NCBI RefSeq assembly: GCF_963921235.1 | Contig: NC_086097.1 | Span: 81,532,001 to 81,596,000 of the forward strand | Length of the DNA: 64,000 bases | Origin: Mobula hypostoma | Taxonomy: Eukaryota | Direction of reading: 5' to 3' | Shown: piece by piece, positions 14,769 through 64,000 of the stretch | Position numbering within the stretch: position 1 is the stretch's first letter | How the letters are laid out: the number at the start of each line of letters is the position of its first letter | Program-made: the position numbers and the translations under genes | The notes under the pieces: generated by a model | What the model saw: only the letters and a program-made list of their open reading frames with translations | Database searches by the model: none | What the model was told of the DNA's origin: nothing

Positions 14769-17700
14769 CAGAGGATTCCATTTAATTGTGACACATCGGG
14801 ACCAGTCGGTTTTGGCCATTTAAGTAGCTGCACTAATCATTTGAAGTTTCATGTGAATAGTTAAAAACTTTAAAAAAAAGATAAACTACCACTTAATGGA
14901 CATTGGTACCAATGACATAGGTAGAAAAAGGGAGGAGGTCCTGGACAGAATTCAGGAAGTTAGGTAGGAAGCTGAAAAGCAGGACCTCTAGGGTAGCATT
15001 CGTGGGATTGCTGCCTGTGCCACATGCTAGCGAGTGCAAGAATAGCATGATCAGGCATACTAATGAGTGGTTGAGAGACTGGTGTCGGGGGCAGGGCTTC
15101 AGATGCCTGGATCATCAGGGCCTCTTCCGGGAGAGGTATGACCTATACAAAAAAGGATGGGTTACACCTGAACCCAAAGGGGTCCAATATCCTAGCGGGC
15201 ACATTTGATAGAGCTGTTAGCGAGGATTTAAACAAATTTGCCAGGGGAATGGGAACCGAGGATTTAAACTAATTTGGCAGGGGAATGGGACCGCAGTGAT
15301 AGGGTTGAGGAAGGAAAAAACAGAAGTAAATCAAAGATAGCATACAACAGAGATTATAGAAAGAACAGGCAGGAGATGAGGCTTATTCACAGCCAGTAGC
15401 ATGAGTTATAGGGCAATAGAGCCATGGTGCAGTTAAAACAAAAAGCAACAAATACTGGACTGAAGGTGTTATATTTGGATACACGCAGCATAAGGAATTA
15501 AATGGACATTCTTGAAAATCAGCCACAGATTGGCAAAAATGACGTTGTGGCCATCTCTGAAACTTGGCTAAACGATGGCTGCCATTGAGAGTTGAATGTC
15601 CAAGGATATACAGTGTATCAGAAAGATAAGTTAGTAGGCAGAGGGGGTGGTGTGGCTCTGTGTATAAGAAATAATATTAAATCATTAGAAAGAGATGACA
15701 GAGACTCTACACCTTCCAATCCTATGGGTTGAGTTAAGAAATGGCAAGGGTAAAAGGACCCTAATGGCAGCTGTATACGGGCCTCCAAACAGCAGCTGGG
15801 ATGTGGATTACAAATTACAACAGGAGATAGAAAGGACGTGTCAGAAAGGCAATGTCATGATAATCGTTGGGGACTTTAACATGAAAGTCGATTGGGAAAA
15901 CTAGGTCAGTACTGGACCTCAAGAGAGAGAATTTGTAGAATGTCTAAGGGATGGCTTTTTAGAACAGCTTGTTGTTGAGCCCACTAGGAGATTGGTTGTG
16001 CTGGATTTGGTGTTGTGCAATGATCCGGAGGTGATAAGAGAGCTCAACATTAAGGAACCCTTGGGGAACAGTGATCACAATATGATCGAGTTCACATTGA
16101 AATTTGAGAGGGAAAAAATAAAATCCAATGTGCCGGTATTTCAGTGGAATAAATGAAATTACCATAGCACAAGAGGGGAACTGGCCAAAGTTGACTGGAA
16201 AGGGACAATTGCAGGAAAGGCAGTAGAGCAGCAATGGCTGGAGTTTCTGCGAAAAATGAGGGAAGTGCAAGACAGATACAGTATATTCCAAATAAGAAGA
16301 AATTTTCAAAGGGAAGAAGAACACTACTGTGGCTGACAAGTAAAGTCAGAGCCAAAGTAAAAGCAAAACAGAGGGCATACAAGGAAGCCAGAGCTAGTGG
16401 GAAGATAGAGGATTGGGGAGCTTTTAAAAACTTGCAGAAGGAAACTAAGAAGGTCATTAGGAAGGAGAAGATGAATTATGAAAGGAAGCTGGCAAATAAT
16501 ATCAAAGAAGATACTAAAAGTTCTTTTTTTAAAGTATATAAAGAGAATTGAGGGTAGATATAGGACTAATTCAAAATGACGCTGGAGATATTGTAATGAG
16601 AGATGCAGAGATGGCAGAGGAACTGAATGCGTATTTTGCATTAGTCTTCACAGTGGAAGACGTCTGCAATATACCGGACATTCAGGTTCTAAAGCAAGTA
16701 GCTAGAGAGATTGCAGAGGCATTAACAATGATCTTTCAAGAATCGATAGATCCTGGCATTGTACTGGATGCCTGGAAAATTGCAAATGTTACTGTGCTAT
16801 TTAAGAAGGGTGGAAGGCAGCAGAAAGGAAACTATGGACCTGTTAGCCTGACATCAGTGATTGGGAAGTTGTTGGAATCGACTGTTAGGGATGAGATTAT
16901 GGAGTACCTGGAGGCACATGACAAGATACGCCAAAGCCAGCATGGTTTCCTGAAAGGGAAATCCTGCCTAACAAACCTACTGCAATTCTTTGAGGAAATT
17001 ACAAGCAGGGTAGACAAAGGAGATGCAGTAGACGTGGTGTCCTCGGATTTTCAGAAGGCCACTGACAAGGTGCCGCATACGAGTCTGTTTAGCAAGATAA
17101 GAGCCCATGGAATTACAGGGAAGTTACTAGCGTGGGTGCAGCATTGGCCGGTCAGCAGAAAACAGAGAGTGGAAATAAAGGGATCCTATTCTGGCTGGTT
17201 GCCAATTACCAGTGGAGATCCACAGGGGTCGGTGTTGGGATCGCTGCTTTATATTAAGTATATCAATGATTTGGACTACTGTATTAATGGATTTGTGGCT
17301 AAATTTGCCAATGATACAAAGATAGGTGGAGGAATGGGTAGTGTTGAGGGAACAGAGAGCCTGCAGGGAGACTTAGATAGTTTAGGAGAACGGGCAAAGA
17401 AGTGGCAAATGAAATACAATGTTGGAAAGTGTACGGTCATGCACTTTGGTGGAAGAAATAAACGGGCAGACTATTATTTAGGTGGGGAAAGAATTCAAAA
17501 TGCAGAGATGCAAAGAGACTTGGGAGTCCTTGTGCAAGATACCCTAAAGGTTAACCTCCAGGTTGAGTTGGTTGTGAAGAAGGTGAATGCAATGTTGGCA
17601 TTCATTTCTAGAGGTATAGAATATAAGAGCAGGGATGTGATGTTGAGGTTCTATAAGGCACTCGTGAGACCACACTTGGAGTATTGTGTGCAGTTATGGG

Positions 17701-18919
17701 CTCCTTATTTTAGAAAGGATATACTGACATTGGAGAAGGTTCAGAGAAGATTCACAAGCATGATTCCAGGAATGAAAGGGTTACCGTATGAGGAATATCT
17801 GGCAGCTCTTGGGCTGTATTCCCTGGAGTTCAGGAGAATGAGGGGGGAATCTCATAGAAACATTCTGAATGTTAAAAGGCCTGAACAGATTAGATATGGC
17901 AAAGTTATTTCCTATGGTCAAGGATTCTAGGACAAGGGGGCACAACTTCAGGATTGAAGGACGTCCATTTAGAACTGAGATGCGGAGAGATTACTTTAGT
18001 CAGAGGGTGGTAAAGCTGTGGAATTTGTTGTCACGAGTGGCTGTGGAGGCCAAGTTATTGGCTGTATTTAAGGCAGTGATAGATAGGTTCTTGATTAGCC
18101 AGGGCATCAAAGGGTATGGGGTAAAGGCAGGGGAGTGGGGATGACTTGAAGAATTGGATCAGCTCATGATTGAATGGTGGAGCAGACTCAATGGGCCGAA
18201 TGGCCGACAACTGTTTCTATATCTTATGGTCTTATGGACTGAATAACAAGCTATGTACTTAAATGAAAAACAGAACAAATCAGAACTTCAGTTATACTAC
18301 CGCAGTACTACAAAACTGTAGTTCCTACTAGCTATCAATGGAGGAATTCATCCAGTATACACTGCTGTCCTTTTGATTGACTGTAAATAAACAAAATCAG
18401 CGCAGACACCTAGTGCAGATAATAGACTGTTTTCATACAACGCTTTTGACAATTACATCCTTCAAATCTTCATTTTCATTGTAACATTCAATATAATTGT
18501 CAATACCTTTAAATTCTTTGTAGCTCCTAACTTGAAGTGAAATTGTTTCATTTTTATTTCTGGTCACTCTTGTCGTCTCCAAGTCTGAATGCTTGAAACC
18601 AGAGTGAGCCAAACAAATCCGAATTGTCTTACTGCTTATTGCTCACCAACTATGAATGACAAAAATCATGCTTTTTGCACACACACACAACTGAGGCTAT
18701 TTGAAATGGTTTGCTCTAAGCACAGTATTAGTGTCTAATGGCCACACGTGCACACATCAGACACTTGTTAGAAACTGCTCAACAAGAGTCTTCTGCCCCA
18801 GTTAAGCAGCATTATGTCCCAAATAAACAAAGGGAATTTCAGCCATTTTCTTGATTCATTTTGGTACTTTATAAATTGTCCCAAATAAGAAAATTGCCCT
18901 GATTAACCAGAATCCACTG
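14769..18919. mobile_element. Tigger/pogo-like non-autonomous DNA transposon split by a CR1 insertion
   Basis: TA|cagaggattccatttaatt ... gattaaccagaatccactg|TA; both halves homologous to 40871-41563. Confidence 0.75.
14902..18239 (+). mobile_element. CR1 LINE, 5'-truncated, with ORF1 esterase remnant and frameshifted APE-RT ORF2
   Basis: HIGTND..NEWLRDWC..GLHLN (SGNH esterase); VYGPPN, VGDFN, LGNSDH (APE); QHGFLKGKSCLTNL, PQGSVLG, KFANDTK (RT; ADD mutated); (tcttatgg)2 tail. Confidence 0.95.
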
Positions 18920-19434: not shown

Positions 19435-20023
19435 ATGCTGTAGTCAGGTTTCCAGTTTGGTCGTCGGCCGCTCAACCATGGTTTTCGGTCTGGCGCCGGA
19501 CGCTCGGAGAGATTCGGCGGGAGGCAGGTGTCCAGCGCTCGGCCGGGGGCCGTGGTCGGGTGGTCGGCGACTTGGCCAGCTCCCCCACCGGACTTAGTCT
19601 GGTGAGGAGGGTGTGAGGACACCCAGCAGGACTAAAAAAAAAAGACCTGACAAAGGGCAGATGAGCTCCTTGTGAGCCAACGGCCATCTTCCGTGGAAGA
19701 GAGTAAAACCTCACCATGTATCTACGAATCCTATGCTATGCATCTAGTTAGAAGAGACATGATGGACTTGGGCGCTGCATCGTGTGCCTGGACCTGCCCA
19801 AGGCCTCCGCCTAAGGAAGGGCCGAGCTCAAAGAAGCAGCCGCGGCTGGAGGCCGACACGGCCTCGGGCTTGAGTTTGGCGGGGGCAGCGGCGGGTGGTG
19901 CCAAGGCAGCCAGCGAGAACAAGCTGGAGGCGAGGCTGTACTCGGTGCTGTCGCAAGATCGAAGAAGATGGAGGTGCATAGCCGCCAACCCCGGATTCGG
20001 GACGGCACCCACTGACTGACTGA
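19435..20023 (+). mobile_element. Probable RTE-clade-derived short retroelement carrying a captured gene fragment
   Basis: LVRRDMMDLG...(A)QDRRRWRCIAANP resembles an RTE ORF C-terminus; (ACTG)3 tail; hairpin-rich GC-rich head; 5' boundary uncertain. Confidence 0.5.
19774..19951 (+). pseudogene. ZFTRAF1: Circularly permuted 178-bp fragment of ZFTRAF1/CYHR1 N-terminal coding region
   Basis: 19810-19951 encodes PKEGPSSKKQPRLE...[10 protein letters not shown] and 19774-19809 encodes (C)[11 protein letters not shown]; rejoined they match the recalled ZFTRAF1 segment [23 protein letters not shown]. Confidence 0.85.
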
Positions 20024-20170
20024 GCAGGAAAGAGCTGACTGAAGTTCCCCTGTTTTCTACTTTCTCGTCCCCATTCAGAGTAAAACTTATGGACAGCAAT
20101 CAGCAATTCCAATGCATGGAAAAAGTAATTTGGATTGTTTTAACTGCACTCATCATTCAATATCACTTTA

Positions 20171-21720
20171 GAGTGCCTTGAAAAAGTGTTCAACCCCAAA
20201 ACGATTCTCACATTTTAGTGTCATTTTCAAAATTTAATATATTGAAGTAAGATTTTTTAGCTAATCTAGAAAACGTGCGTCATGTCAAATCAAAAGAAAA
20301 ATTCCAAAACATGTCAATGATTAACTAAAAAATTAAAAACCAAAATGATGAGGCTGAAAAAGTATTCATCCCCATTATAATTACAATGGTAACTTTCCTC
20401 AAGTACAATATACAGTATTACCTTAGCAACTCACTCGATTCATTGATGTAGAAACCTGTAGAATCACCTGTTTCCAATCAATCCATAAGAATAAATACCC
20501 CTCTCTCTGTAAGGCCCAATAGTATGGTAAATTTTCAACAGACCAAGCCAAAATAAAGACAAAATAGAATTCAAGGCAAGTCAGGTAAGTAGCAACAGAG
20601 AAGCACAAATCCAGGGAAGTATACAAGACCATCTCAAAGGCACTGAACATACCTCAGAGATCAGTGCAGTCCATCGTGAAAAAAATGGAAAAGATATGAA
20701 ACCGCATCCACACTGCTTGGATCAGGTTGCCTCTCTAAACTTAGTTGCTGGTGAAAAAATGGCACTTGTAAGAGATGCCACAATGACGCCAGCAGTCCCT
20801 GAATGCAACTAGAGATGAAGTTTATTGTTCCTGAATCTCCAAGGCCTTGCACAATAAAGTATTTATGGAAGAGTGACAAGGAAGAATCCTTGGCAAAAAC
20901 TAAACATATCGTTGCCCATACAGACTTTGCAAAGTGTCACTTAGAAGATACTGCAAAGGTATGGAAGGTAGTCTTGTGGTTGGATGGGACTGAAGTGCGA
21001 TCTTTTGGCCTCAACACTGAGCAGTACGTGTGGCATAAATCTAATACAGAGCATCAAACGTCCTGACTGTGAAATACAGCGGAGGTCGCATCATGCTATG
21101 GGGATGCTTTTCAGCAGCAGGGACTGGAAATCTGGTCAGGACTGATGGCAAGATGAATGCTGCTAAATACAGAGAAATCCTGGATAAAAAAAAACTGCTA
21201 GCCTCTGCCAGAAAGCTTAAAATGGGGAGAAAGTTTGTCTTTCAGCAGGACACTATCACAGCAACCATGGAGTGGCTTCAAATGAAGAAAATTGATGTCC
21301 TTGAGTGGCCCAGTCAGACTCTTGACCTTAACATGATGGAACATCTCTGGCAAAACCTCAGGTTTGCTGTCCACTGCTGCTCTGCAACTACCCTGGCACA
21401 GCTTGAGCAATGTTGCAAGGAGGGATGGGCAAATCTTGCTCAAATCACATTGTGCAAAGCTAATAGAGACTTATCTAGAAAGACTACTGGCTGTAATAGC
21501 TGTGACAGGTTCAACTAAGTACTAAGCAAAGGGAGGTGAATACTTTTGGACTACTGACATTTCAGTTCTTTTAATTTTTAGATTTTCATGCTTTAAAATT
21601 TTCCACATTATTTGAGCTCTACCATGAAAAAAGGAGCAGTTAAATTGATCAAAATCCCTGGTTATAATACTCATTTATGTGAATACAGGCTGGTGGGCTG
21701 AATACTTTTTCAAGGCACTG
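20171..21720 (+). mobile_element. Near full-length decayed Tc1 transposon
   Basis: TA|gagtgccttgaaaaagtgttcaaccc ... gggctgaatactttttcaaggcactg|TA; VLWLDGT, KYSGGRIMLWGCFS, FQQD, WPSQTLDLNMMEHLW (DD34E motifs) with stops, frameshifts and a deletion. Confidence 0.95.
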
Positions 21721-21962: not shown

Positions 21963-22044
21963 ATGCTGCCTGGCCTGCTGCGTTCACCAGCAACTTTGAT
22001 GTGTGTTGCTTGAATTTCCAGCATCTGCAGAATTCCTCGTGTTT
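21963..22044 (+). mobile_element. Isolated terminal ~80 bp of a young Neptune PLE tail
   Basis: Near-identical to 47194-47274. Confidence 0.8.
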
Positions 22045-22272
22045 ACTTTCCTGTAAAAGTTTATTTCTCCCAAGTATGTCCATTTTATAGTTGAAACAAC
22101 TCAAAACCCTATCATCAGACTTCTCTGATTTGTTGATTATCAATATCCTCTGTTGCACAGAAATGGGATTAAACATTTTACTACCAAACTTTAATTAAAA
22201 GTGCAACATATTCGAGTTTACATTGAAATAAACCTGAAAAAAAAGGTCAATCAAGGTTAAGGAAAAAAATAC

Positions 22273-24987
22273 AAAGCAACATACACAAAATGCTTGAAGA
22301 ACTCAGCAAGTCAGAGACCATCTTTGTAAAGGATCAAACAGTTGATGTTTTGGGCCGAAACTATTCTTTCAAGACTGGAAAGGAAGGAAGAGGATGCCAA
22401 AATAAAATGCGAGGGGGCAGGGAAGGAGGGTAAGCTAGAATGTTAAAGATGAAGCCAGGTGGGTTGGAAAGTCGTAGGGCCGGAGGTGAAGGAACTTTAT
22501 TGGAGAGGAGAGTGAACCATAGGAGAAAGGGAAGGAGGAAGGGCACTAGGGGGAGGTGATAAGCAGGTGAGAAGAGGTAAGAGACTAGATTGGGGAGAAG
22601 AAGAAAAGGTATGGAAAAAGGATTTTTTTTTGCAGAACGATAAATTGATATTCATGCCATCAGGTTGGAGGTTACCCAGATGGAATATAAGGTGTTGCTC
22701 CTCCACCCAACGAGGGTGGCACAAGACAGACCATGGACCAACATATCGGAACAGAAATGGGAAATTGAATTAAAATGTTGGGCCATCGGTGAGTTCTGCT
22801 TTTGGTGGATGGAGCAGAAGTACTCAATGAAGCTGTCCCCCATTTACGACTAGCCTCACCAATGTAAAGGAGGCCGCATCGGGAGCATCAGACACAGTAG
22901 ACAACCCAGCAAATTTGCAGGTGAAGTGTTGCTTCACCTGGAAGGACTGTTTGGGGCCCTGAATGGAGGTGAAGGAGGAGGTGAATGGACTGATATAGCA
23001 TTTTGACTGCTTGCAGGGACAAGTTACGGGAGGAAGATTAGAAGGGAGGGATAAATGGACGAGAGAATTATGGAGGGAGCTTTACCTGCAGAAAGCAGAC
23101 AGTGATGGGTGGTTGGTAAAGATTTGTTTGGTGTTAGGGTCTCTTTGGAGATGGTGGATGTTGCGGCGGTTGATATGTTGGATGCAGAGGCTCATGGGGT
23201 GGTAAGCAAGGACAAGAGGAACTCTATCTCTGTTAAAGGGGGTGAGAAGATGGGTTGAATGCAGATGTCCAGGAAATGTAGAAGATGCAGGTGAAGGCAG
23301 CATCAATGGTGAAGGAAGGGAAACCCCATTCTTTAAAGGAAGAGGACACCTCTGATGTCCTGGAAAAGAAAGCCTCATTCTGGGAACAAAAGTGGCCAAG
23401 ATGAAGGAAGTGAGAAAAAGGAATAGTATTTTTGTAGGAAATGGGATGAGAGGAAGTATCATCAAGATAGCAATGGGAATTGGTAGGTTTATAAAAGATG
23501 TCGGTCGAGAGTTTGTCTTCAGAGATGGAGACACAAGGATCTAGAAAGGAGGCGGAGGCTTCAGAAATTGACCAAGTGAATTTAAGGACAGGGTGGAAAT
23601 TAGAGGCAAAGTTGATGAAATGGATGAACTCAGCATGGGTGCATGAAGCAGGACCAATGCAATTGTCAATGTCGCAGGGGAAGAGTTGGAGAGCATAATC
23701 AGCGAAGGCTTGAACACGAACTGCTTCACATAGCCAGCAAAAAGGCAGGCACAGCTGGGGTCCACGCAGCTGTCAATGGCTACCTCTGGAGTCCGGAGAA
23801 CGGGTGGAGAAGCCAAAGGAGAAATCGTTGAGGGTGAGGACCAGTTTTGCTAGACAAAGCAAGGTGGTGATAGAGGGGAACTGGCTGGTTCTTTTATTGA
23901 GAAAGAAGCTGAGAGCTTTAAGGCCTTCTTGATGAGGGAACAGAAGTGTAAAGGGACAGGACTTCCATGTTGAAAATGAGGCAGTCAGGGCGAGGGAGTT
24001 GAAAGTTGATGAGGAGATTGAGAGCATGAGAAGTGTCGCGGATGTAGGTAGGAAGGGTCTGAACCAAGGGGGATAGAATGAAGCCAAGATATGAGGATTC
24101 GAGTTGTTGAGGCAGGATCAGGCAGATACAACGAGCCTACAAGGACAGTCAGGTTTTTGGAACTTGGGTAGGTGGTAGAAGCAAGCAGTGTGGGGTAAAG
24201 GAACTACAAGTTTGGTGGCAGTGGATGGGAGTTCTTCAGTTGATGAGGTCAGTGATGGTGTTAGAGGCAGTTTTCCGATGGCCTGGAATAGGGCCCTCTT
24301 CAAGGGGTTGGTAAGAGGTGGTGTCTGAGAGTTGCCAACTAGCCTTGGCAAGGTAAAGGTTAGTAAACCATGCTACAACAACACTCTCTTTGTCGAGCAC
24401 CAATGCTCCATCCGCCAAAAGCGGAACTTCTCTGGTGGCCCAGTATGTTAATTCCCATTCCCATTCTGACATGTCGGTCCATAGCCTCTCTTGTGCCATG
24501 ACGAGACCATCCTCAGGATTGAGGAGCAACACCTTATACTCCATCTGAGTAGCTATTAATCTGATGACATGAATATTGATTTCTCCTTCCAGTAAAATAA
24601 ATCCTTCCCCCTCCTCTCGCTTATTCCCCACTCTGGCATTTTGCTTCTTTTCACCTGCCTATCACCTCCCCCTGGTGCACCTCCTCCTTCCTTTTTTCCC
24701 TTGGTTCACTCTCCTTTCCTATCAAATTCCTTCATCTCCAGCCCTTTATCTTTCCCACCCACCTAGCTTCACCTATCACCTTCCAGCTCTCCTCCCTCCT
24801 CTCCCCCCACCTCTTTATTCTGGTACCTTCCTTTTCCTTTCCAGTTGTGACAAAGGATCTTGACCCAAAACATTGACTGTCTGTTCACTTGCATTAATAC
24901 TGCCCGACCTGCTGAGTTCTTCCAGCATTTTGTGTATGTTACTCTGGATTTTTCCAGCACCTACAGAATTTCTTGCATTTATATTTA
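22273..24987. mobile_element. Neptune PLE: minus-strand body (22273-~24390) plus inverted plus-strand 3' segment (~24390-24987)
   Basis: RT and GIY-YIG remnants (RVPLVLAYHP, LVLTLNDFSF, QKPDCPCRLVVSA); tails point outward; candidate TSD aaaaaaatac (22263-22272, 24988-24997). Confidence 0.85.
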
Positions 24988-26969: not shown

Positions 26970-28725
26970 CACAAGACATAACAGCAGAATTAGGCCATTT
27001 GGCATATTCAGTATAGCTCAACCATTGCTCATTTCTTTTCCCTCACAACCCTATCCTTGTGCCTTATCTCCATAACCGTACTTACCAAAAAACCCATCAA
27101 CCTTCACTTTAAACATATCAAATGACCTGGCCTCTACACCTCTCTGTGGCAATGAATTCCACACCCTCTGGTTAAAGGAATTCCTCATATCCGTCCCTCT
27201 TGTCCTAAACTCTCCCACTATTGGAAACATCCCCTCAACATCCACTCTATCCAGCTTTCCCAAAATTCATTAGGTTTCAATGAGAAAACACCACCCCCAC
27301 TGCATTCTTCTAAACTTCAGTGAGTGAAAGCCCATAGTCATCAAACATTCCACATACATCAACCTTCCATTCCTGGATCATTCTTGTGAACCTCCACTAG
27401 ATCCTCTCCAATGCCAGCAAGCCTTTCTTAGATAAGGGGCCCAAACCTTCTCACAATACTCCAAGTGCAATCTGACCAATGCATTTTAAAACCTGAGCAT
27501 TATATCCTTGCTTTTGCATTCTAGTCCTCTCGAAATGAATGCTAACATTGCATTTGCCTTCATTACTACCGACTCAACCTGCAAGTTAACCTTTAGGGAA
27601 TCCTGCATGAGGACCCCCCCACCCCCCGCCAAGTCCCTTTGCACCTTCAATTTCAGAACTTGCTTCCCATTTAGAAAATAATCTGTACTTTTATTCCTTC
27701 TACCAAAGTGGGTGACCACACACTTCTCATACAATTCACTTGCTGTATTCCATCTACCTCTTCTTTAGCCATTCTCCTCACCTACCCAAATCCTTCTGCC
27801 ATCCACCTGCTTCCTCAACACTGCCTCCCCCTCCACCTATCTTTGTATCATCAACAAACTGGGCCACAAAGACATCAATTCCATCATCCAGATCATTAAC
27901 ATATAACGTTAAAAGTAGCTGACCCTACCTTAGCCCCTGTGCAGCACCACTAGTTGCCAGGAGCCAACCAGAAAAGACATCCTTTACTCCCATTCTTTCT
28001 TTCCAGCCAGTCAGCCAATCTTCTGTCCATGCTAGTATCTTTCATGTCCTACCATGGGCTCTTATTTTGACTAGCAGCCTCATGTGCTGTTGTCAAAGTC
28101 CATCTGAAAATCCAAGTAAAGAACATCCACTTACTCTCCTTTGTCTATCCTGCCTATTATTTCCTCAAAGAATTCCAAAAGATTTGTCAGGCAAGATCTA
28201 CCCTTAAGGAAACCATGCTGATGGCAGCCTATTTTATTGTGTACCCCCAAGTACCCCAAAGCCTCATTCTTAATAATAACTCCCATACCTTGCCAATCAC
28301 TGAAGTCAGATAATCTGGCCTATAATTTCCTGTCTTTTGCCTCCCTCCTTCTTAAAGAGTGGAGTGACTCTTGTGATTTTCCTGTCCCCTGGAACCATTC
28401 CAGAACCTAATGATTTTTGAAAAATTATTACTAATGTGTCCCCGATATCTTTAGCTACCTCTTTCAGAACTCTGGGCTGTTGTCCTTCAGGTCCAGGTGA
28501 TTTATCTAACTTCCAACCTTTCAGCTTCCCAAGCTCCTCAAATAATAGGAAGCACACTCACTTCTGCTTCCTGACACTCCTAAATTTCTAAAAAGCTACT
28601 GATGTGTTCCACAATGAAGCCTGATGCAACATCCTCAGTTCATCTGCCATTTCCTTGTTCCCTAATTCTACCTCTCCAGCATCATTTTCCGGCAGTCACT
28701 GTCCCTGTTGCCTCTCATTTACTCT
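26970..28725 (-). mobile_element. CR1 LINE fragment, decayed
   Basis: DKSPGPEG..PRVLKEVA, VTPLFKK, KANAMLAFISRGLE on the minus strand. Confidence 0.9.
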
Positions 28726-29033
28726 GAACAGTACTTAAAATTGCACCACTACAAAATATCATGCAAAAGTCTGCTTCCATTAATCAAGCTAAATGTTCAG
28801 CCTACAGCGTATAATGACAAGAGCACAGCAGGAAAAAGTACTGGTCTGGTAAATCATGCAATTGCAGTGCAATCATAAAATACTCTTCTCTCGATTAAAA
28901 ATGGCAATCTTATTTTTTATGATAAATATTAATATGCAGTAGGATCTGCCCATGCTTCCTATGATTTTGTCATCCAGTTGAAATAATAATTAATTTATAA
29001 TACATTAATTATAAAATAAATTAATAAAGTTAC

Positions 29034-29090
29034 CTGTTATCAGTAAGATGGAATGATTGATATAGGAATCTTCATTGAAAATTAATAACC
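29034..29090 (-). CDS. Candidate 57-nt internal exon of an unidentified host gene (coding status unproven)
   Basis: Acceptor ctctttatttcttttgcag|G and donor CAG|gtaact; only phase 1-1 is open: LLIFNEDSYINHSILLIT. Confidence 0.45.
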
Positions 29091-30214
29091 CTGCAAAAGA
29101 AATAAAGAGCCATATTAATAAATCCACCTTATGCAGTTCTTAGATCTATAGTTACCACAGTTTTATATTGACTCCGTACTGTGTGAACAAATAAATAACT
29201 TGATAAAGAACACGTTCCCGAAAACTCCCACAGGAAACCAGGATGATTTATTTCTTATCCCGCAGTGACTGGTTTTAATAATTGATGAATATAATTCTCT
29301 GCAACTCACAAAACCCTCACTTCTGTTCTCCTTTCCAAATGCGACATGGTTTCACTATCGAGTGCAAAAACTGAAGGGTAAATCAAGAGGTACCCAATAA
29401 AAAAAAGAGGGTCACTCTTCATAAAGAGCAGGTATGTTAGTGAAAAACAAAATTTTATTTTTATGTCAATGGAATATAAAAGGTAAATTCCATAAAATGC
29501 TTGTTTACTTTTATCCAGCACTGAGCTTGGCCTTGAAAGTGTTGTTCTGGAAAACTTCGAATTAAATATAATAATTGATCCAAAAATAGTTACAAAAGTG
29601 GTAATTCACAGCATCGTTTGTGCTAAACTTCCACGTGCAACATTCATAATCCAGAATGGAAAACTGAACTCCACCTTGTTTTATTAAGGAAATCTGCTGC
29701 GATTTGTAAAATGAAAGATATTTACCAGCAACACTCAGTTCCATTCTATGCCTGTGCTTTATCCTTTAAAATTGCTGCAGGAGAAGCAAAGGATCAGTCA
29801 TTTTGTATGGGACTTGTGCTGTGACATCAATAAGTTCTACACCAGCGACCTCACAAACAGGGAGACCAACACACAGTCAAACAACCATCCTGATACTAAA
29901 ACAGCAGGAAGCATCACCATACAAGCCATCTGTCCCAAGCTACTTCTAAATACCAACTTTGACAAAAAGAGCACCCCAACCGACGAGTGTATCAGTAACT
30001 TTTGTTCTGAACATATGATTTGCATTGCAATTCAGCAGAATATAATTACCTGTGAAAACAAAAGTTTGCAGTAGTTTTGAATTCTTTAGTTTCACTCATT
30101 TCATTTCCATGCAGCTGGAAAGCAGAACATGCCCAATAACTGTGAAAGTACAACACTAGTCTATCTCTAGGCAACCCAAAAAGACACTGGGAGAAGATCC
30201 TTGGAAACCAATAA

Positions 30215-31590
30215 TTTAAGTTCCAACATGTTCCAGATGACTTTTTTTTATATAAGCTTTTAAAAACCAACAGACGGCAACTAAAGAAGTTATTAAGAAG
30301 GTAAAGATGGAATAAGAAAGTAAGCTAGCCAATAACATTAAAATGTATACCAAAAGTTTCTTCAGTTACATAAATTGTGAAAGAGCGGCAAGAGTGAATA
30401 TCAGACTGCTGGAAAATGATGCTGGAGAGGTAGTAATGGGGCATAATGAAATGGTAGACGAACTGAATAAGTATTTTGCATCAGTCTTCACTGTGCAAGA
30501 CACTAGTAGTATGGTGGAAGTTCCAGGTGTCAGGAGGCATGAAGCCTGCGAAGTTACCATGACCGGAGAGAAGGTCCTTAAGAAACTGAAAGGTCCGAAG
30601 GTAGATAAATTACTGGAACCAGATGTTTACACCCCAGAGTTCAGAAAGTGTTGACTGAAGAGATCGTGGAGACATTAGTAATTCAGGAATCACTTAATTC
30701 TGGAATGGTTCTGGAAGATTGGAAAATTGCAAATGTCACTCCACTCTTTTTACGTTACATGTCAATGATTTGGATGATGGAATCGATGGCTTTGTTGCAA
30801 AGTTTGCAGACAATATGAAGATAGGTGGAGGGGCAGGTAGTTCTGAGGAAGTAGAGAGGCTACAGAAGGACTTAGGCAGATTAGGAGAATGGGCAAAGAA
30901 ATGGCAGATGGAATATAATGCTGGGAAGTGTATGGTCGTGCACTTTGGCAGAAGAAATGAAAGGGTTGACTAATTTCTAAATGGAGAGAAAATACAAAAA
31001 ACTGAGGCACAAAGGGACTTGGGAGTCCTTGTGCAGGATTCCCTCAAGGGTAATTTGCAGGTTGAGTCCGTGATGAGGAAGGCAAATGCAATGTTAGCAT
31101 TAATTTAAGACAACTAGAATACAAAAGTAAGGATGTAATATTCAGGTTTGTTAAAGCACTGGTGAGGCCTCACTTGGAGTATTGTGAGCAGTTTTCACTG
31201 GCTTGTATTCACTGGAATTCAGAAGAATAAGGGGGGGACCTCATTGAAACCTATCTAATGGTGAAAGGTCTTGGATGTGGACGGGATGTTTCCTATGGTG
31301 GGACAGCCTAAGACCCGAGGACACAGCCTCAGAATAGAGGGGTGCTCTTTGAGAACAGAAATGAGGAGTAATTTTTTTTAACCAGAGAGTGGTGAATCTG
31401 TGGAGGCCAAGTCTTTATGTATATTTAAGGCAGAGATGACAGGTTCTTGATTGGTCAGGGCATGAAGAGATACTGGGAAAAGGCAGGATACTGGGGCCGA
31501 GAGGGAATTTGGATCAGCCATAATGAAATGGCGGAGCAGACTCGATGGGCCAAATGGCCAAAATCTGCTCATATATCTTATGGTCTCATG
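30215..31590 (+). mobile_element. CR1 LINE fragment with internal deletions
   Basis: TKSFFSYIN, ELNKYFASVFT, VAKFADNMKIGG, EWAKKWQMEYN; tail atcttatggtctcatg. Confidence 0.9.
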
Positions 31591-32892: not shown

Positions 32893-33769
32893 GGTAAAAT
32901 ACAGGCAAAACACTTGTTTGCCTGTAGCATCCAGTACAGGTTACTGCCCAAATAGCACAATTTCACACGACATTTTCCAAAAGACATCAATAAGCCGATG
33001 CCAATACAAATCGTTCAGTGCATGAGGGAATAAACTGAGGTGCCACATTGCTCATTGCTGGCTTGTGTGTTCTAATCTGTATTTTTAACTAATGTACTAA
33101 TCAGTCGAATTATTTCTCCTGTATTTGTAATTATTACCAGCAGAGCCACCACCGTGCTAATGCTTCACCATTCCTCCCCTCCAGAAGAAATCGGAGAAAG
33201 CAACAGGAGAAAATATGAGCTGCAGGCCCCTCAAGCCAGCCCAATCTTTCAAGGTGATCATGGCCGATTTCTGCTGGTCTTGGCTCCTTTTCTATTCTCA
33301 TTTTGTACAATGCTCAATTCTTTGATCTTTCAAACATTTATCCATCTCCATCTTCAATTTATCTAATGGCTTGACCTCAACCACCTTTGGGGGCAGAGAA
33401 TTCCAGAGATCCACTATCCTCAAAGATTCACTTCAGTTGACTTAAAAAAGAAAACATTATTTTATTCAAATTACCATTGCAATCAGGATGTTTACACAAT
33501 AATTCCAACAACATGGTAAATCTTCCTTGCTAGCAACCATCCCCACATCATATTCTTGATTTGCAACTTAAGAAATATGTGCAAAAACAAGAGTATTCAA
33601 TCTCTCATGCATCATTTAGTATGACATAATTTATCATTCATCTCAACACTATTTTCCTGACTTACCCCAGGATATTCCTTTAATATCCTGAAAGCTTTTG
33701 ATATCTACCTCCACAGCTCTCTGGGAGTGTGCACTGCAAAACTTCACCACCTTGTGTGAAAAAAAATCT

Positions 33770-34018
33770 AAACAGGAATTCTGCAGATGCTGGAAATTCA
33801 AGCAACACACATCAAAGTTGCTGGTGAACTCAGCAGGCCAGGCAGCATCTGTAGGAAGAGGTGCAGTCAACGTTTCAGGCCGAGACCCTTCGTCTGCAGT
33901 CGACGTTTCAGGCCGAGACTCTTCGTCAGGACTGACGAAGGGTCTCGGCCTGAAACGTTGACTGCACCTCTTCCTACAGATGCTGCCTGGCTCCTGCTGC
34001 GTTCACCAGCAACTTTGA
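33770..34018. mobile_element. 249-bp fold-back insertion made only of PLE tails with hammerhead cores
   Basis: 15-bp TSD tgtgaaaaaaaatct (33755-33769, 34019-34033); inverted arms meet at cttcgtcag-ga-ctgacgaag. Confidence 0.9.
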
Positions 34019-36693
34019 TGTGAAAAAAAATCTCTTCACTTCAGTTCTTTATGGCCTGTGCTTGTGTTCATAAATCTTTGCACGTGGCAGTGCAGAGTCA
34101 CAAAACATGTGCTGAGACATCACATCATGCAATGTCACCTCAACTTCAATGACAAATGAAACACATTTGAAAACCAGAGACCTGCTGCATGTTGCATAAT
34201 CTAGCATCTAACTTGCTAAATTGTGAAGTTAAACATATTGTCCAAGCACGCGCCATGGAATCTGATGGCATACAAATGCAAGACTGGATACCTTTTATAG
34301 GTTTATAATCAGAAACGACACCAATGCAGTTTGGGGATCCCCTCATGAACCTCAGATACTTCACAATACTAGAGGTCGGCTTCAGTGAAACTTCATTGAG
34401 ATGTGGACAAATTATTTTTCTTGCCCAAGTTGACATTACATAGCATAGCACTTCTGGCTGCTTGCCCTTCTGCTCAAGAATGTTCTGCAACCACTCAAAG
34501 ATATACTGGACACACTAGGATGTCCCACCAACAACACAGGTTTGAAATGTGAAGAACACATATAAAATGCTGGAGGAAACCAGCAGTTTAGGCAGCATTT
34601 ATGGAGGGAAATAGACAGTTGACATTTTGGGCTGAGAACTTTCATCTGGATATCCAACTGCAAAATTGGCTACGTTCCCTCATCTCCTGTCTCAGGCAAA
34701 GAAAGGGCACAAGGAATAAAAGCCATTGATAATGCAAGGCATTTTCATTTGAGGTATTACAAGTATCCCAGAATCACGATCTCAAACTGAACATTCAATA
34801 GTCCACCTCAAACAATAGGCTCATCTTAGTTTCCCAGCGATAAGATCTGAGCATTATACATTTGAGCCACAGAATATAGTTCCTGTATTAAGCAGTGGTT
34901 AGGCCACAACTGATTATTGCATTAAATTCTGGTCACCACACATTAGGAAACATTCAAGTGTGAGAAGGTGTGCAGGAAAGATCAACTGCCACAAACCTGC
35001 CTGTCCAGATAGACCCATTGTCTCAGCTTGCTCCTGCCCCACCGAACTCATTTCCACATACCTCAACACTGTTTTATCCCCCCTTGTTCAATCCCTTCCC
35101 ATGTTCGTGACACTTCTCACACTCTGAATTTTTTTTGATGATTTTAAGTTCCCTGGCCCCCACCGCTTTATTTTCACCATGGATGTCCAGTCCCTATATA
35201 CTTCCATCCCCCAGCAGGAAGGTCTCAAAGCTCTACGCTTCTTTTTGGATTCCAGACTTAACCAGTTCCCCTCTACCACCACTCTGCTCTGTCTAGCGGA
35301 ATTAGTCCTTACTCTTAATAATTTCTCCTTTGGCTCCTCCCACTTCCTCCAAACTAAGGTGTAGCCATGGGCACCCGTATCGGTCCCAGCTATGCTGGCC
35401 TTTTTGTTGGCTTTGTGGAACAATCCATGTTCCAAGCCTATACTGGTATCTGTCCCCCACTTTTACTTCGCTACATCAAGGGCTGCATTGGTGCTGCTTC
35501 CTGCACGCATGCTGTGCTCGTTGACTTCATTAACTTTGCCTCCAACTTTCACCCTGCCCTCAAGTTTACCTGGTCCATTTCCCACACCTCCCTCCCCTTT
35601 CTTCATCTTTCTGTCTCTATCTCTGGAGACAGCTTATCTACTCATGTCTACAATAAGCCTACGGACTCTCACAGCTACCTGGACTACTCCTTTTCCCACC
35701 CTGTCTCTTGCAAAAATGCCATCCCCTTCTTGCAATTACTCCGTCTCTGCCGCATCTGCTCTCAGGATGAGACTTTTCATTCCAGGACGAAGGAGATGTC
35801 CTCCATTTTTAATGAAAGGGGCTTCCCTTCCCAACTCTGCTCTCAAACGAATCTCTCCCATTTCACGCACATCTGCTCTCACCCCATCCTCCCGCCACCC
35901 TACTAGGAATAGGGTTCCCCTTGTCCTCACCTACCACCCCACCGGCCTCCAGGTCCAACATATTATTCTCCGTAACTTCTGCCACCTCCAACGGGATCCC
36001 ACCACTAAGCTCATCTTTCCCTCCCCCCCTCTCTCTGCATTCCGCAGGGATCGCTCCCTACACAACTCCCTTGTCCATTCGTCCCCCCCATCCCTCCCTA
36101 TTGATCTCCCTCCTGGCACTTATCCGTGTAAGCGGAACAAGTGCTACACATGCCCTTACACTTCCTCCCTTACCACCATTCAGGGCCCCAGACAGTCCTT
36201 CCAGGTGAGCAACACTTCACCTGTGAATTGGCTGGGGTGATATACTACGTCCGGTGCTCCCGATGCGGCCTTCTATATATTGGCGAGAACCGACACAGGC
36301 TGGGAGACCGTTTCGCTGAACACCTACGCTCTTGTCCACCAGAGAAATCAGGATCTCCCAATGGCCACACATTTTAATTCCACGTCCCATTCCCATTCTG
36401 GTATGTCTATCCACGGCTTCCTCTACTGTCAAGATGAGGCCACACTCAGGTTGGAGGAAGAACACCTTATATTCCAGCTGGGTAACCTCCAACCTGATGG
36501 CATGAAAATTGACTTCTCTAACTTCCGTTAATGCCCCACCTCCCCTTCGTACCCCATCTGTTATTTATTTATTATTATTAATTTTTTTCCTCTCTCTCTC
36601 TTTTTTCTCCCTCTGTCCCTCTCACTATACTCCTTGCCCATCCTCTGGGCTTCCCCCCTCCCCCTTTCTTTCTCCCTAGGCCTCCTGTCCCAT

Positions 36694-37023
36694 AGATAGA
36701 TAGATAGATAGATAGACAGATAGACAGACATACTTTATTGATCCCGAGGGAAATTGGGTTTCATTACAGTTACACCAAGCAAGAATAGAGTATAAATATA
36801 GCAATATAAAACCATAAATAATTAAATAATATGTAAATTATGCCAGATGGAAATAAGTCCAGGATCATCCCATTGGCTCAGGGTATCTGACTCTCCAAGG
36901 GAGGAGTTGTAAAGTTTGATAGCCACAGGCAGGAATGACTTCCTATGACGCTCAGTGTTGCATCTCGGTGGAATGAGTCTCTGGCTGAATGTACTCCTGC
37001 GCCCAACCAGTACATTATGTAGT
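36694..37023 (-). mobile_element. Rex1 LINE 3' fragment with (TCTA)n tail nested in the PLE 3' UTR
   Basis: RSTFSQRLIPPRCNTERHRKSFLPVAIKLYNSS; ccctcgggatcaataaagta followed by (tcta)n. Confidence 0.85.
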
Positions 37024-37164
37024 AATCCTCTCATGATCCTCTCATATCCCTTTTGCCAATCAACTTTCCAGCTCTTAGCTCCATCCCTCCATCTCCTGTC
37101 TTCTCCTAACATTTCGGATCTCCCCCTCCCCCTCTCAAATCTCTTACTATCTCTTCTTTCAGTT

Positions 37165-37200
37165 AGTCCTGACGAAGGGTCTCAGCCCGAAACGTTGACT
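37165..37200 (+). ncRNA. Minimal hammerhead ribozyme motif
   Basis: agtc-CTGACGA-a-ggg(tctcag)ccc-GAAA-c-GTT-gact. Confidence 0.75.
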
Positions 37201-38249
37201 GTACCTCTTCCTATAGATGCTGCCTGGCCTGCTGCGTTCACCAGCAACTTTTGTGTGCGTAACATGGGGTTAATTATTGGAGATCGCCTTTTAAATGTAC
37301 ATATTCATTAAAGTGGTTTGCATAAAGAGAAGCTGTTCCTGTTTACATACAGTTGAAGGAACAGAATTTGAAAAGAAAAAAATGCAGCTGTGCATCAATT
37401 GAGGACTGGAAGAGGAGAATGAAATTTGAAGGCGGAATTAAAAGGACCATCTTATTTTCAAAAGGGAGTGGATATACACTGGAACCCACTGCCAGAAGGG
37501 TACACTCACATTATGGAAAGGTTGCCTTCTTCAAGAAATGTCCATATTACTATTTTCCATAATATGAACCCTGGACAAAAATTGACAAAATTTCTTGTTT
37601 CTTTCACACTGTTTATTTAATTTTCTTTATTCTAGCATAAATTCACTAATTGTGACTGTGTACTGGTTTCAATTTTTTTCCAAGTGATTTGTGAGATGCA
37701 CTGTATGATGCATAGGACTGTCTCTAAAGAGCAGAGAATGAAACCAAGTGGAGGGTTTTACCAACTGTTGGCAGAGACCTGATGGGCTGAATGGCCTCTG
37801 TTTGTGTTTTAAGATTTCCATTTTGCCAGGCCACCCATTGCTATAAATAGCATTCTGAAGAAAACAAAAGCAGCAGAAACCAGTATGAGCAGTCACATTT
37901 TCAGACTTATTTTATGCAATGCCAAAGAGCAATATAATATTAAAAACTGATAACACAGCTATAGAACTGTAGCACTAATCCCCTCACAAAAGAGTACTTT
38001 TTCATTGATCAAAACCTTGTCCTGGAAAAACCATTCATTACTGTCATTCAGAGCCAGGAATAATTGGTGACAGCAGAAACAGAAATATTGGATGTGCCAA
38101 GAGGCAAGTTGAGAAATCTTTTGGTAACAGTGCTTTCACTATAAATATGTGGTCAAAAAGGAGCAATTCCATCACACTCTTTTCAAAACATTAACCACGA
38201 GCAATTTTAGGATGTAATGGAGTGGAAACGAACAGGTTTGAACAGTTAG

Positions 38250-45870: not shown

Positions 45871-47275
45871 CACAACGTCAGAGTTGCTGGTGAATGCAGC
45901 AGGCCAGGCAGCATCTCTAGGAAGAGGTACAGTCGACGTTTCCGGCCCAGACCCTTCGTCAGGACTAACTGAAAGAAGAGATAGTAAGAGATTTGAAAGT
46001 GGGAGGAGGAGGGGGAGATCCAAAATGATAGGAGAAGACAGGAGGGGGAGGGATGGAGCCAAGAGCTGGACAGGTGATTGGCAAAAGGGATATGAGAGGA
46101 TCATGGGACAGGAGGCCTAGGGAGAAAGAAAAAGGGGGGGGTAAAACCCAGAGGATGGGCAAGGGGTATAGTCAGAGGGACAGAGGGAGAAAAAGGAGAG
46201 AGAGAAAAAGAATGTGTGTATATAAATAAATAATGGATGGGGTACGAGGGGGAGGTGGGGCATTAGCGGAAGTTAGAGAAGTCAATGTTCATGCCATCAG
46301 GTTGGAGGCTACCCAGACGGAATACAAGGTGTTGTTCCTCCAACCTGAGTGTGGCTTCATCTTTACAGTAGAGGAGGCCGTGGATAGCCATATCAGAATG
46401 GGAATGGGACGTGGAATTAAAATGTGTGGCCACTGGGAGCTCCTGCTTTCTCTGGCAGACAGAGCGTAGGTGTTCAGCGAAATGATCTCCCAGTCTGCGT
46501 CGGGTCTCGCCAATATATAGGAGGACACATCGGGAGCACCGGACGCAGTATATCACCCCAGCTGACTCACAGGTGAAGTGTCGCCTCACCTGGAAGGACT
46601 GTCTGGGGCCCTGAATGGTGGTAAGGGAGGAAGTGTAAGGGCATGTGTAGCACTTGTTCCGCTTACAAGGATAAGTGCCAGGAGGGAGATCGGTGGGGAG
46701 GGATGGGGGGGGACGAATTGTCAAGGGAGTCACATAGGGACTGATCCCTGCGGGAAGGGGGGGGGGGGAGGGAAAGATGTGCTTAGTGGTGGGATCCCAT
46801 TGGAGGTGGCAGAAGTTACGGAGAATAATATGTTGGACCTGGAGGCTGGTGGGGTGGGTAGGTGAGGACAAGGGGAACCCTATTTCTAGTGGGGTGGTGG
46901 GAAGATGGAGTGAGAGCAGATGTACGTGAAATGGGGGAGATGCGTTTAAGAGCAGAGTTGATAGTGGAGGAAGGGAAGCCCCTTTCTTTAAAAAAGGACA
47001 TCTCCCTCGTCCTGGAATGAAAAGCCTCATCCTGAGAGCAGTTGCGGCAGAGACGGAGGAATTGCGAGAAGGGGATGGCATTTTTGCAAGGGACAGGGTG
47101 AGAAGAGGAATAGTCCAGATAGCTAGCTCTTCTTTCAGTTAGTCCTGACGAAGAGTCTCGGCCCGAAACACCAACTGTACCTCTTCCTAGAGATGCTGCC
47201 TGGCCTGCTGCGTTCACCAGCAACTTTGATGTTTGTTGCTTGAATTTCCAGCATCTGCAGATTTCCTCGTGTTTG
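45871..47275 (-). mobile_element. Neptune PLE: minus-strand GIY-YIG body plus inverted tail (47127-47275)
   Basis: GVIYCVRCSRCVLLYIGETRRRLGDHFAEH; 12-bp TSD cacttcacactt (45859-45870, 47276-47287). Confidence 0.95.
45931..45966 (-). ncRNA. Minimal hammerhead ribozyme motif with intact GUC site
   Basis: Reverse complement: agtc-CTGACGA-agggtctgggccg-GAAA-c-GTC-gact. Confidence 0.75.
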
Positions 47276-63245: not shown

Positions 63246-64000
63246 CTTTAAAACCATTAAAGGCATAGCATTAAATATGATTTTAAAACCATATCTTGGC
63301 CTAGTGAAAGAGATTACTACATGCTATTTGCAACAAGTCCATCAGATATATTTGGGACACTTAGCATGCCCTCCAATATGAGGATTAATGCAGCGTATTG
63401 ATGGAGTTGACCTATGGTTTTTAAGTGAATGCTTTGCTCTTTGGATAAGGAGTGTTATTTTACCCCCATCCAGTACAATGGTATAATGGCATACTTAAGG
63501 ATCTACATCCTTTGATGCATCTGAAGTCACCCACCCAAAAGACTCTTTTGACACTGAGGTTATGGAAGGGTCCAACCAGTTGAAACAGCACTATATTGAA
63601 ATAGATTTTTTTTAGGTTAGTGTTATATTTCTAACGCTTTTTCATATTTTCTTAAAATATAGGAAGCCATAAGGGCCATACAAGTCTATGCTTTGTCTTG
63701 GAGCAGTCCTATCAATTATATTCCCTTTCATCTGTTCTCTGTCACAGCCCATCTGCTTCACCAAAGAACACTAAGCTATATAGCACAGGTACAGGCCCTT
63801 TGACTCAATATGTGCTGACCATGATTCAAAGCTAATTCTATCTGCCTGCACATGATCTATTCTTTTATTCTCATTTGTAGGGTTGTTCACTGAGCCTGGA
63901 GGTGAGGTCTCAAAAGCTTCATCATAGGCGACAAAACATTTGCGACCTAACCTCCAGGCTCAGTTAACAACCCTACAAACAAGAAGCCAACCCAAGCTAC

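What the first reader, a model, noticed from the sequence alone, without database searches (positions are those of the whole stretch)
33770..34018. Protein-free fold-back cassette of hammerhead-bearing tails with its own 15-bp TSD
Seen: two PLE tails head-to-head, with the hairpin apex (ga, 33930-33931) immediately 5' of the CTGACGA box on both strands. The left arm also has a 33-bp tandem duplication (33862-33894, 33895-33927), giving two consecutive minus-strand cores: one complete with GTC, one with CAGACGA. The plus-strand core lacks its 5' stem I strand. The TSD is perfect and divergence is low. Knowledge: minimal PLE hammerheads lack a stable stem III and are thought to cleave as dimers; retrozymes are non-autonomous hammerhead retroelements. 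Inference: either an extreme truncation-inversion product or a retrozyme/MITE-like minimal mobile unit.
Basis: partly seen in the sequence, partly recalled or inferred. Interest (0 to 1): 0.7.

Follow-up and report, generated by a model that had tools for sequence, protein, structure and literature searches.

The report
Minimal two-armed Penelope retroelement insertion
This 249-base hairpin is a real insertion, but it is the shortest form of a known pattern in which Penelope-like jumping genes leave two head-to-head copies of their tail, so it is most likely an ordinary dead by-product and not a new mobile element.

Summary
The 15-bp TSD is perfect, and a contig from a related organism shows the empty site with one copy of it.

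The insert is two head-to-head tails of a very abundant Penelope-like element (PLE). The sense arm ends at the short end. The inverted arm carries a 38-nt extension. The arms meet at a 2-nt overlap.

Two longer copies in the same window have the same layout and their own TSDs but turn at other points. Contigs show many further head-to-head joints, most resolvable ones with 2-3 nt of microhomology. This "inverted copy plus one-sided tail" layout is described for PLEs (PMC8557442, PMC3846280).

None of the three hammerhead cores looks functional. One lacks stem I, one has U4A, and the complete one has a damaged stem II. The retrozyme tandem-repeat criterion was tested and not met.

The copy number of the exact junction could not be measured, because no genome is held. 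One lead remains: arm ends may cluster at the hammerhead's 5' edge.

The scan reported this pattern before, in this genome and others.

The parts
33755..33769 (+). Left copy of the 15-bp target-site duplication
   Evidence: D3; empty site with one copy in run X13, record 9
33770..33807 (-). 38-nt one-sided 'tail' extension of the inverted arm (long end of the PLE terminal repeat)
   Evidence: present in the left arm and in copies at 47125-47275 and 21963-22046, absent from the right arm; 30-40 bp tail described in PMC8557442 and PMC11167929
33770..33894 (-). Inverted PLE tail arm, ending 2 nt into the hammerhead's CTGACGA box
33862..33894 (-). Duplication unit 1; carries hammerhead core 2 (33896-33869), dead: U4A and no 5' stem I strand; same letters as the right arm
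   Evidence: not matched by the CTGA.GA descriptor
33895..33933 (-). 39-nt middle segment (duplication unit 2 plus 6 nt): one whole minimal type I hammerhead; stem I 33934-33930 with 33901-33897, core 33929-33902, GTC triplet, stem II weakened by G-to-A; differs from both outer arms at 2 positions
33932..33933 (.). 2-nt overlap (CT) shared by the inverted and the sense arm: the actual junction
33932..34022 (+). Sense PLE tail arm, 5'-truncated at the CTGACGA box; core 33932-33959 with GTT triplet and no 5' stem I strand; short 3' end whose last 4 nt coincide with the first 4 nt of the TSD
34019..34033 (+). Right copy of the 15-bp target-site duplication
45871..47275 (-). Comparison copy B (not part of the finding): same family, sense short end + 3' UTR + GIY-YIG + part of RT, then inverted tail with long end; own 12-bp TSD at 45859 and 47276; turn near 47124 with a 2-nt overlap
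22273..24987 (-). Comparison copy G (older subfamily): two arms of about 550 bp (73% alike), 10-bp A-rich TSD at 22263 and 24988, turn between 24166 and 24395
34983..37260 (+). Comparison copy C: one-armed copy of the parent PLE (RT part, GIY-YIG, 3' UTR, hammerhead tail, short end); no TSD found

Best explanation
A single, dead-on-arrival integration product of an endonuclease-positive Penelope-like retroelement, the shortest case of the usual 'sense copy plus adjoining inverted copy with a one-sided tail'. Proposed steps: (1) the element's GIY-YIG nuclease cut both strands of an A-rich target 15 bp apart (TSD and empty site shown; the enzyme is inferred). (2) One DNA end primed reverse transcription at the short start site of the terminal repeat, helped by a 4-nt match to the target; the other end primed at the long start site about 38 nt further on (the two end points are shown; priming on both strands at two internal sites was shown in vitro for an anole PLE and is inferred here). 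(3) Both copies stopped after 90-165 nt, at the hammerhead's 5' edge and about 26-32 nt upstream of its cut site, so the templates were uncut RNA (end points shown). One strand picked up a 33-nt repeat, most simply by a jump to a second RNA of the family, since the middle segment differs from both arms at 2 positions (inferred). (4) The two ends were joined head-to-head through a 2-nt microhomology (overlap shown; repair route inferred). The hammerhead motifs are passengers of the terminal repeat and are sequestered or damaged.
For: Same short-end/long-end polarity and own TSD in 3 of 3 two-armed tail-bearing copies found in the window, with three different turn points. [quoted passage not shown] Empty site in organism D: one 1594-nt contig covers 33560-33735 and then 34019-34207. 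The tail is extremely repetitive: 53,016 contigs laid in X1, summed depth 10^6-10^7 against 10-30 on the flanks (not a copy number). Of 15 joints shown (304 not shown), 9 join nine different left-arm points (33820-33895) to 33932, 1 joins 33919 to 33993, and 5 are artefacts of the duplication in the reference. Microhomology of 2 nt or more in 5 of the 6 joints I resolved, and at the junctions of this copy and copy B, against 15% for random pairs. Literature passages: inverted 5'-truncated copy and 30-40 bp tail (PMC8557442); head-to-head junctions with palindromes and TSDs of 8-10 bp (PMC3846280); both strands cut and extended, two RT start sites, ribozyme cleavage not needed in vitro (PMC11167929).
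Against: The copy number of the exact junction and of the duplication junction is unmeasured. Some single joint types have depth far above single copy: a near-identical apex at 284.6 in 2 contigs in X1 and 43.4 in X5, and 33868-to-33932 at 130.2 in one contig in X1 and 0 in X5, against 10-12 for the flank contigs. These could be recurrence or re-amplification. The duplication junction has no microhomology (from the sequence), so step 3 is only one possible route; arm-to-arm conversion after insertion would also explain it. PMC3846280 explains head-to-head palindromes by self-priming on an antisense template, not by two primings. The joints analysed are the best-supported few, not a random sample.
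Confidence: 0.85

Rival explanations
1. Same origin, but not random: reverse transcription of this family preferentially stops at the hammerhead's 5' edge (RNA 5' end, a splice boundary or a structural stall), so minimal fold-backs arise again and again independently. This refines the best explanation and is compatible with it.
For: All three segments of this copy end between 4 nt upstream and 2 nt inside the CTGACGA box. The six resolved joints have one arm starting between -5 and 0 relative to the box. A near-identical apex is multi-copy by depth. A pyrimidine tract ending in CAG lies just upstream of stem I; in D. virilis Penelope the intron end maps to the 5' end of helix I (PMC4209133).
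Against: The reference's sense arm begins at 33932, so joints pile up there by construction and only the best-supported rows are shown. Copy B's inverted arm runs about 20 nt further upstream and copy G's several hundred. No transcript start or splice was tested.
Confidence: 0.35
2. One arm was primed from the target and the other was made by snap-back (self-priming) DNA synthesis or hairpin repair, with the stem I complement as the fold-back handle.
For: The outer arms end at the same nucleotide (33894 and 33934) and are nearly identical. Stem I pairs close the 39-nt loop on both strands. Self-priming is proposed in PMC3846280.
Against: The right arm ends at the family's usual short end, as in the one-armed copies at 37260 and 113, which suggests independent priming. 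Extension from the stem I fold-back would need an additional 3-nt slip to give the observed junction (from the sequence). Copy G's inverted arm cannot be explained by this handle.
Confidence: 0.15
3. A non-autonomous retrozyme- or MITE-like unit that is itself re-copied by the PLE protein, with the duplication freeing one hammerhead at the tip of an RNA rod.
For: Own TSD. On the minus strand the duplication leaves core 1 outside the long helix, with stem I pair probabilities about 0.7, and a hammerhead-like fold only 3.7 kcal/mol above the minimum. Some joint types are multi-copy and uneven between organisms A and B. PLE terminal repeats can act in trans (PMC3846280).
Against: No head-to-tail array of intact ribozymes; repeat unit 33 bp against 51-972 bp or 150-450 bp. 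Core 1's catalytic bases G5-A6-C7 are 97% paired in the ensemble and its stem II is damaged; core 2 and the plus core are incomplete. While the strand is being made, core 1 is first trapped in the inner hairpin. Minimal hammerheads showed no activity as single motifs (PMC4209133). The ends are explained by de novo PLE integration.
Confidence: 0.05
4. Assembly artefact or chance hairpin.
For: Near-perfect inverted repeats of a high-copy element are hard to assemble; no listed contig spans the whole insert.
Against: Both flank-element junctions appear in X1 contigs at single-copy depth, the left one also in organism B (20-29 letters into the element, under the tool's 31-letter bridging rule), and the empty site lacks the insert length. 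X1 may be the source sample.
Confidence: 0.02

Closest known systems
Complex insertions of endonuclease-positive Penelope-like elements: adjoining inverted 5'-truncated copy plus one-sided 30-40 bp tail (PMC8557442; PMC3846280, passages read)
   Same: Head-to-head arms, tail on one arm only, TSD around the whole unit, palindromic junction, parent with RT and C-terminal GIY-YIG.
   Different: No coding sequence is left at all, and there is a 33-bp internal duplication of the hammerhead core.
Minimal type I hammerheads (min-HHR) of metazoan PLE terminal repeats (PMC4209133, parts 1-2 of 4 read)
   Same: No helix III loop, 4-5 bp helix I, extra base between positions 9 and 10.1, palindromic 15.2-16.2 pair; that paper also notes pairs on opposite strands 100-700 bp apart.
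   Different: Here the opposite-strand cores abut, and all three are incomplete or damaged.
Anole Poseidon element PAc in vitro (PMC11167929, parts 1-2 of 4 read)
   Same: Two end points about one tail length apart, A/T-rich target, arms that run through the uncut hammerhead.
   Different: Different species and probably a different clade: the window's family has a CxxxxCxxC-like linker before the nuclease, which fits the description of Neptune/Nematis; no tree was built. The joining step was not shown in that paper.
Metazoan non-LTR retrozymes (PMC7229834, passages; bioRxiv 10.64898/2026.07.22.740005, part 1 of 5 and passages)
   Same: Protein-free, PLE-derived, type I hammerhead, long TSD.
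   Different: Retrozymes are head-to-tail repeats of at least two units with complete ribozymes and give circular RNAs; this is head-to-head, with one complete but damaged core.
MITEs and L1 twin-priming inversions (recalled; only search listings seen)
   Same: Short, non-coding, inverted repeats plus TSD; inversion joined by microhomology.
   Different: The arms are retroelement tails of unequal length, not transposase TIRs; unlike L1 twin priming, the inverted part repeats the 3' end.

Membership tests
EN+ PLE complex insertion | Sequence derives from the terminal repeat of an element with PLE-type RT and C-terminal GIY-YIG | tested here: met
   arms 89-93% identical to the tails of copies B and C; their ORF fragments match PLE-type RT-region and GIY-YIG clusters (Pfam GIY-YIG below cut-off)
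EN+ PLE complex insertion | Inverted 5'-truncated copy adjoining the 5' end, head-to-head | tested here: met
EN+ PLE complex insertion | 30-40 bp tail on one end only | tested here: met
   38 nt, 33770-33807
EN+ PLE complex insertion | TSD around the whole unit at an A/T-rich site | tested here: met
   empty site; chance control
EN+ PLE complex insertion | Clade assignment (Neptune, Poseidon) by RT phylogeny | not tested
   only a Zn-finger-like linker seen
PLE minimal hammerhead | Conserved core, helix I of 4-5 bp, helix II, no helix III loop | tested here: inconclusive
   core 1: stem I 5 bp, stem II 2 bp; plus core: stem I 0; core 2: U4A
PLE minimal hammerhead | Self-cleavage as a dimer or with protein help | not testable with these tools
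   needs an in vitro assay
Non-LTR retrozyme | At least two consecutive head-to-tail units, each with a complete hammerhead | tested here: not met
   criterion; only one of the two tandem cores is complete
Non-LTR retrozyme | Monomer of about 50 to several hundred bp in direct tandem | tested here: not met
   33-bp unit; head-to-head overall
Non-LTR retrozyme | Linear and circular monomer RNAs in vivo | not testable with these tools
   only contigs were available
MITE-like mobile family | Many loci with the same internal structure and different TSDs | tested here: inconclusive
   no genome; the exact junction maps straight through the reference; related joints are diverse, some multi-copy by depth
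MITE-like mobile family | Equal terminal inverted repeats that abut the TSD on both sides | tested here: not met
   the left end has 38 extra nt; the ends are PLE end points

The most novel reading that the evidence does not exclude
The PLE protein recurrently makes protein-free fold-backs that turn at the hammerhead's 5' edge, and some of them are copied again as units. In this copy the 33-bp duplication frees one whole minimal hammerhead at the tip of a long RNA rod, where two rods could pair through the palindromic core and cut with protein help. This would be a head-to-head counterpart of retrozymes.
Probability: 0.05. Interest if true: 0.65.

Novelty: already known. Interest (0 to 1): 0.15.

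Why it matters
As it stands it is a tidy, well-bounded example of a known PLE insertion pattern. Its value is as a data point: a young minimal insertion with a visible empty site records both end points, the target overlap and the joining microhomology. A genome with this many copies could test two-priming against self-priming models of PLE integration, a step still described as undefined in PMC8557442. It would matter more if arm ends proved to cluster sharply at the hammerhead's 5' edge, or if fold-backs proved to be re-copied.

Tried and rejected
Rfam gave no hammerhead match at E up to 1; the mir-3926 hit (48 bits, gathering 82) reflects only the long hairpin. The 20-nt junction pattern in metagenome contigs gave 3 loci; in 3 of 3 only the 20-mer matched the window and the context looks microbial, so they were dropped as chance. 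No RNA holder was listed for the locus; X18 is only guessed to be RNA and was laid as contigs, so nothing is concluded on expression. Organism B has almost no cover of the right flank; a hole proves nothing. Look-ups of earlier findings by sequence returned nothing. Turning at the ribozyme cut site was rejected for this copy: all segments run about 26-32 nt past it. Cleavage as an intramolecular dimer of the two tandem cores was rejected because core 2 has U4A and no stem I. No TSD was found for copies C and D. Joint rows to 33895/33897 (5 of 15) were dropped as artefacts of the duplicated reference. The row 33869-33934 (one unexplained letter between) and the other rows with unknown or unchecked letters between were left out of the microhomology count. 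Four paper searches listed no title on minimal PLE fold-backs in cartilaginous fish; the library lacks most subscription papers and no supplements were read, so this is no claim of absence from print.

Full report
OBSERVATION. The features described are in the sequence. A perfect 15-bp direct repeat lies at 33755-33769 and 34019-34033, and a 33-bp tandem duplication at 33862-33894 / 33895-33927 (94%). The inverted repeats are 33837-33894 / 33934-33991 (58 nt, 100%), 33895-33929 / 33932-33966 (35 nt, 94%, 2-nt loop) and 33808-33837 / 33993-34022. Both strands fold far better than shuffles (z about -21, 0 of 200). A shared 15-mer arose in 0 of 1500 random pairs of end windows.

Four corrections apply. 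The 'ga' apex continues the inverted copy, and the true junction is a 2-nt overlap at 33932-33933. The outer register with a 39-nt loop is 6.6 kcal/mol better than the 2-nt-loop register. The left arm has 38 extra bases, and the right arm runs 4 nt into the TSD. The complete core has a damaged stem II.

IT IS A REAL INSERTION. No genome is held, so I used public runs and laid contigs of four of them on 33560-34240. In organism D (X13), one 1594-nt contig at depth 7.85 covers 33560-33735 and then 34019-34207. It has 20 letters between the two pieces where the window has 19 before the left TSD copy. That is the empty site with one copy of the duplication. In organism B (X5) a contig runs from the left flank 20 letters into the element with no substitution; this is under the tool's 31-letter bridging rule, so it suggests, and does not prove, a shared insertion. 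X1 (possibly the source sample) has both flank junctions at depth 10-12. No listed contig spans the whole insert.

THE PARENT. The arms are the tail of a Penelope-like element that is common in the window. A 19-nt core motif matches 9 times at up to 3 mismatches against 0 expected, and a tail profile gave 18 hits at E below 0.001, three of them inside this insert. Copies at 34983-37260 and 45871-47275 carry the coding body. Its fragments match clusters of PLE-type RT-region proteins (PF26215) and GIY-YIG proteins at 0.96-0.97 (unaligned leads); Pfam GIY-YIG hits are below cut-off. In X1, 53,016 contigs lay on the stretch, with summed depth 10^6-10^7 over the tail against 10-30 on the flanks. 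This is not a copy number but shows extreme repetition. Earlier scan notes call the genome a cartilaginous fish and give tens of thousands of intact motifs (unchecked).

THE ARCHITECTURE IS SHARED; THE TURN IS NOT FIXED. Copy B has a sense short end, about 1.1 kb of body, an inverted tail with the long end, a 12-bp TSD, and a turn near 47124 with a 2-nt overlap. Copy G, of an older subfamily, has 550-bp arms, a 10-bp A-rich TSD and a turn between 24166 and 24395. So 3 of 3 two-armed tail-bearing copies found in the window share the short-end/long-end polarity and differ in turn point.

In one search, 15 joints are shown and 304 are not. Nine join nine different left-arm positions (33820 to 33895) to 33932, one joins 33919 to 33993, and five are artefacts of the duplicated reference. 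Of six joints I resolved, five have 2-3 nt of microhomology, against 15% expected for random end pairs. These are the best-supported rows, not a random sample, and one further row was left out as unresolved.

Results against my reading: some joint types are well above single-copy depth. A near-identical apex has depth 284.6 in 2 contigs in X1 and 43.4 in X5; 33868-to-33932 has 130.2 in one contig in X1 and none in X5. All six resolved joints have one arm starting within 5 nt upstream of the CTGACGA box, but the reference piles joints up there. The exact junction of this copy maps straight through the reference and could not be counted.

THE HAMMERHEADS. By a minimal type I descriptor, the plus core has 0 bp of stem I, minus core 1 has 5 bp of stem I and 2 bp of stem II, and core 2 fails (U4A). 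In the full minus-strand ensemble core 1 sits in the 39-nt loop. Four of its five stem I pairs have probability 0.68-0.74 and the fifth 0.28. G5, A6 and C7 are 97% paired, and stem II pairs reach at most 0.18. A hammerhead-like fold costs 3.7 kcal/mol. While the strand is being made, core 1 is first trapped in the inner hairpin. The plus core is almost fully paired. Single minimal hammerheads showed no detectable cleavage, and dimers only low cleavage (PMC4209133). The anole PLE ribozyme cut only with protein, and its cleavage was not needed for insertion in vitro (PMC11167929). All segments here run past the cut site, so the templates were uncut.

MECHANISM. Shown: TSD, empty site, two characteristic end points, 4-nt target match at the short end, 2-nt junction overlap. 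Inferred: both target ends primed reverse transcription, one at each internal start site, as the anole protein cuts and extends both strands and starts at two sites that bound the tail. Both copies stopped at the hammerhead's 5' edge and were joined by microhomology. The middle segment differs from both outer arms at two positions. At one of them it has the GTC of copy B's 3' arm; at the other it has the same A as copy B's inverted arm. A jump to a second template is the simplest account; later arm-to-arm conversion is an alternative. The duplication junction has no microhomology. Snap-back synthesis is a rival, and PMC3846280 favours self-priming on an antisense template. A pyrimidine tract ending in CAG lies just upstream of stem I, and one frame is open through the tail. 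Together with the D. virilis intron end at helix I, this suggests a transcript boundary near the stopping zone; it was not tested.

COMPARISON. PMC8557442 (passages) describes an inverted 5'-truncated copy adjoining the 5' end and a 30-40 bp tail at one end as typical of PLEs. PMC3846280 (passages) describes head-to-head junctions with palindromes as the most frequent arrangement, with TSDs of 8-10 bp. PMC4209133 (parts 1-2 of 4) notes minimal hammerhead pairs on opposite strands 100-700 bp apart. [quoted passage not shown] MITE and L1 comparisons are recalled; only listings were seen. No supplements were read; the supplements of PMC11167929 and PMC4209133 may bear on end points and motif variants. 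The scan has reported the same pattern at several other places in this genome and in other genomes (AI notes, unchecked, not counted as support).

VERDICT. A real insertion and a known pattern, most likely a dead minimal PLE integration product (0.85). Interest 0.15. The open lead is a preferred stopping zone at the hammerhead's 5' edge (0.35). A re-copied fold-back unit is not excluded but unlikely (0.05).

Noticed in passing
window 45871-47275: Two-armed PLE copy with 12-bp TSD inserted into the 3' part of a LINE-like RT copy; same layout as the finding, with about 1.1 kb of body.
   Followed up: yes
window 22273-24987: Older two-armed PLE copy, 550-bp arms, 10-bp A-rich TSD, turn between 24166 and 24395.
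   Followed up: partly
window 37146-37168 and 45963-45985: Pyrimidine tract ending in CAG directly upstream of the hammerhead's stem I looks like a splice acceptor; one reading frame is open through the whole tail (47125-47275), so the ORF may start in the terminal repeat.
   Followed up: partly
joints on window 33770-34022: Some head-to-head joint types are at ten or more times single-copy depth and differ between organisms A and B (33868-to-33932: 130.2 against 0; near-identical apex: 284.6 against 43.4).
   Followed up: no
window 21963-22046: Solo 84-bp tail fragment with the long end, lacking the hammerhead; no TSD found.
   Followed up: partly
window 34539-34664: Old, decayed solo tail on the minus strand that also seems to begin near the hammerhead's 5' edge.
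   Followed up: no
window 63868-63985: Unrelated 118-bp hairpin (52-nt arms, 87%, 14-nt spacer); its weak Rfam mir-5615 score is below the gathering cut-off.
   Followed up: no
window 2198-4287: About 2.1-kb decayed fold-back of nested inverted repeats (73-87%), not from the PLE tail.
   Followed up: no
window 27196-31320: Long decayed inverted pair of LINE-like RT fragments (about 75-85%), similar to the RT ORF at 16542-17930 (Pfam RVT_1).
   Followed up: no
window 21045-21518: Fragment of a DDE transposase (Pfam DDE_3, E 3e-4, below cut-off).
   Followed up: partly
window 19651-20099: G+C-richer stretch with open frames of 122 codons on both strands and no Pfam match; may be a host exon or a LINE ORF1 remnant.
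   Followed up: partly
window 36697-36730: GATA/GACA microsatellite with a further insert interrupting the 3' UTR of PLE copy C.
   Followed up: no
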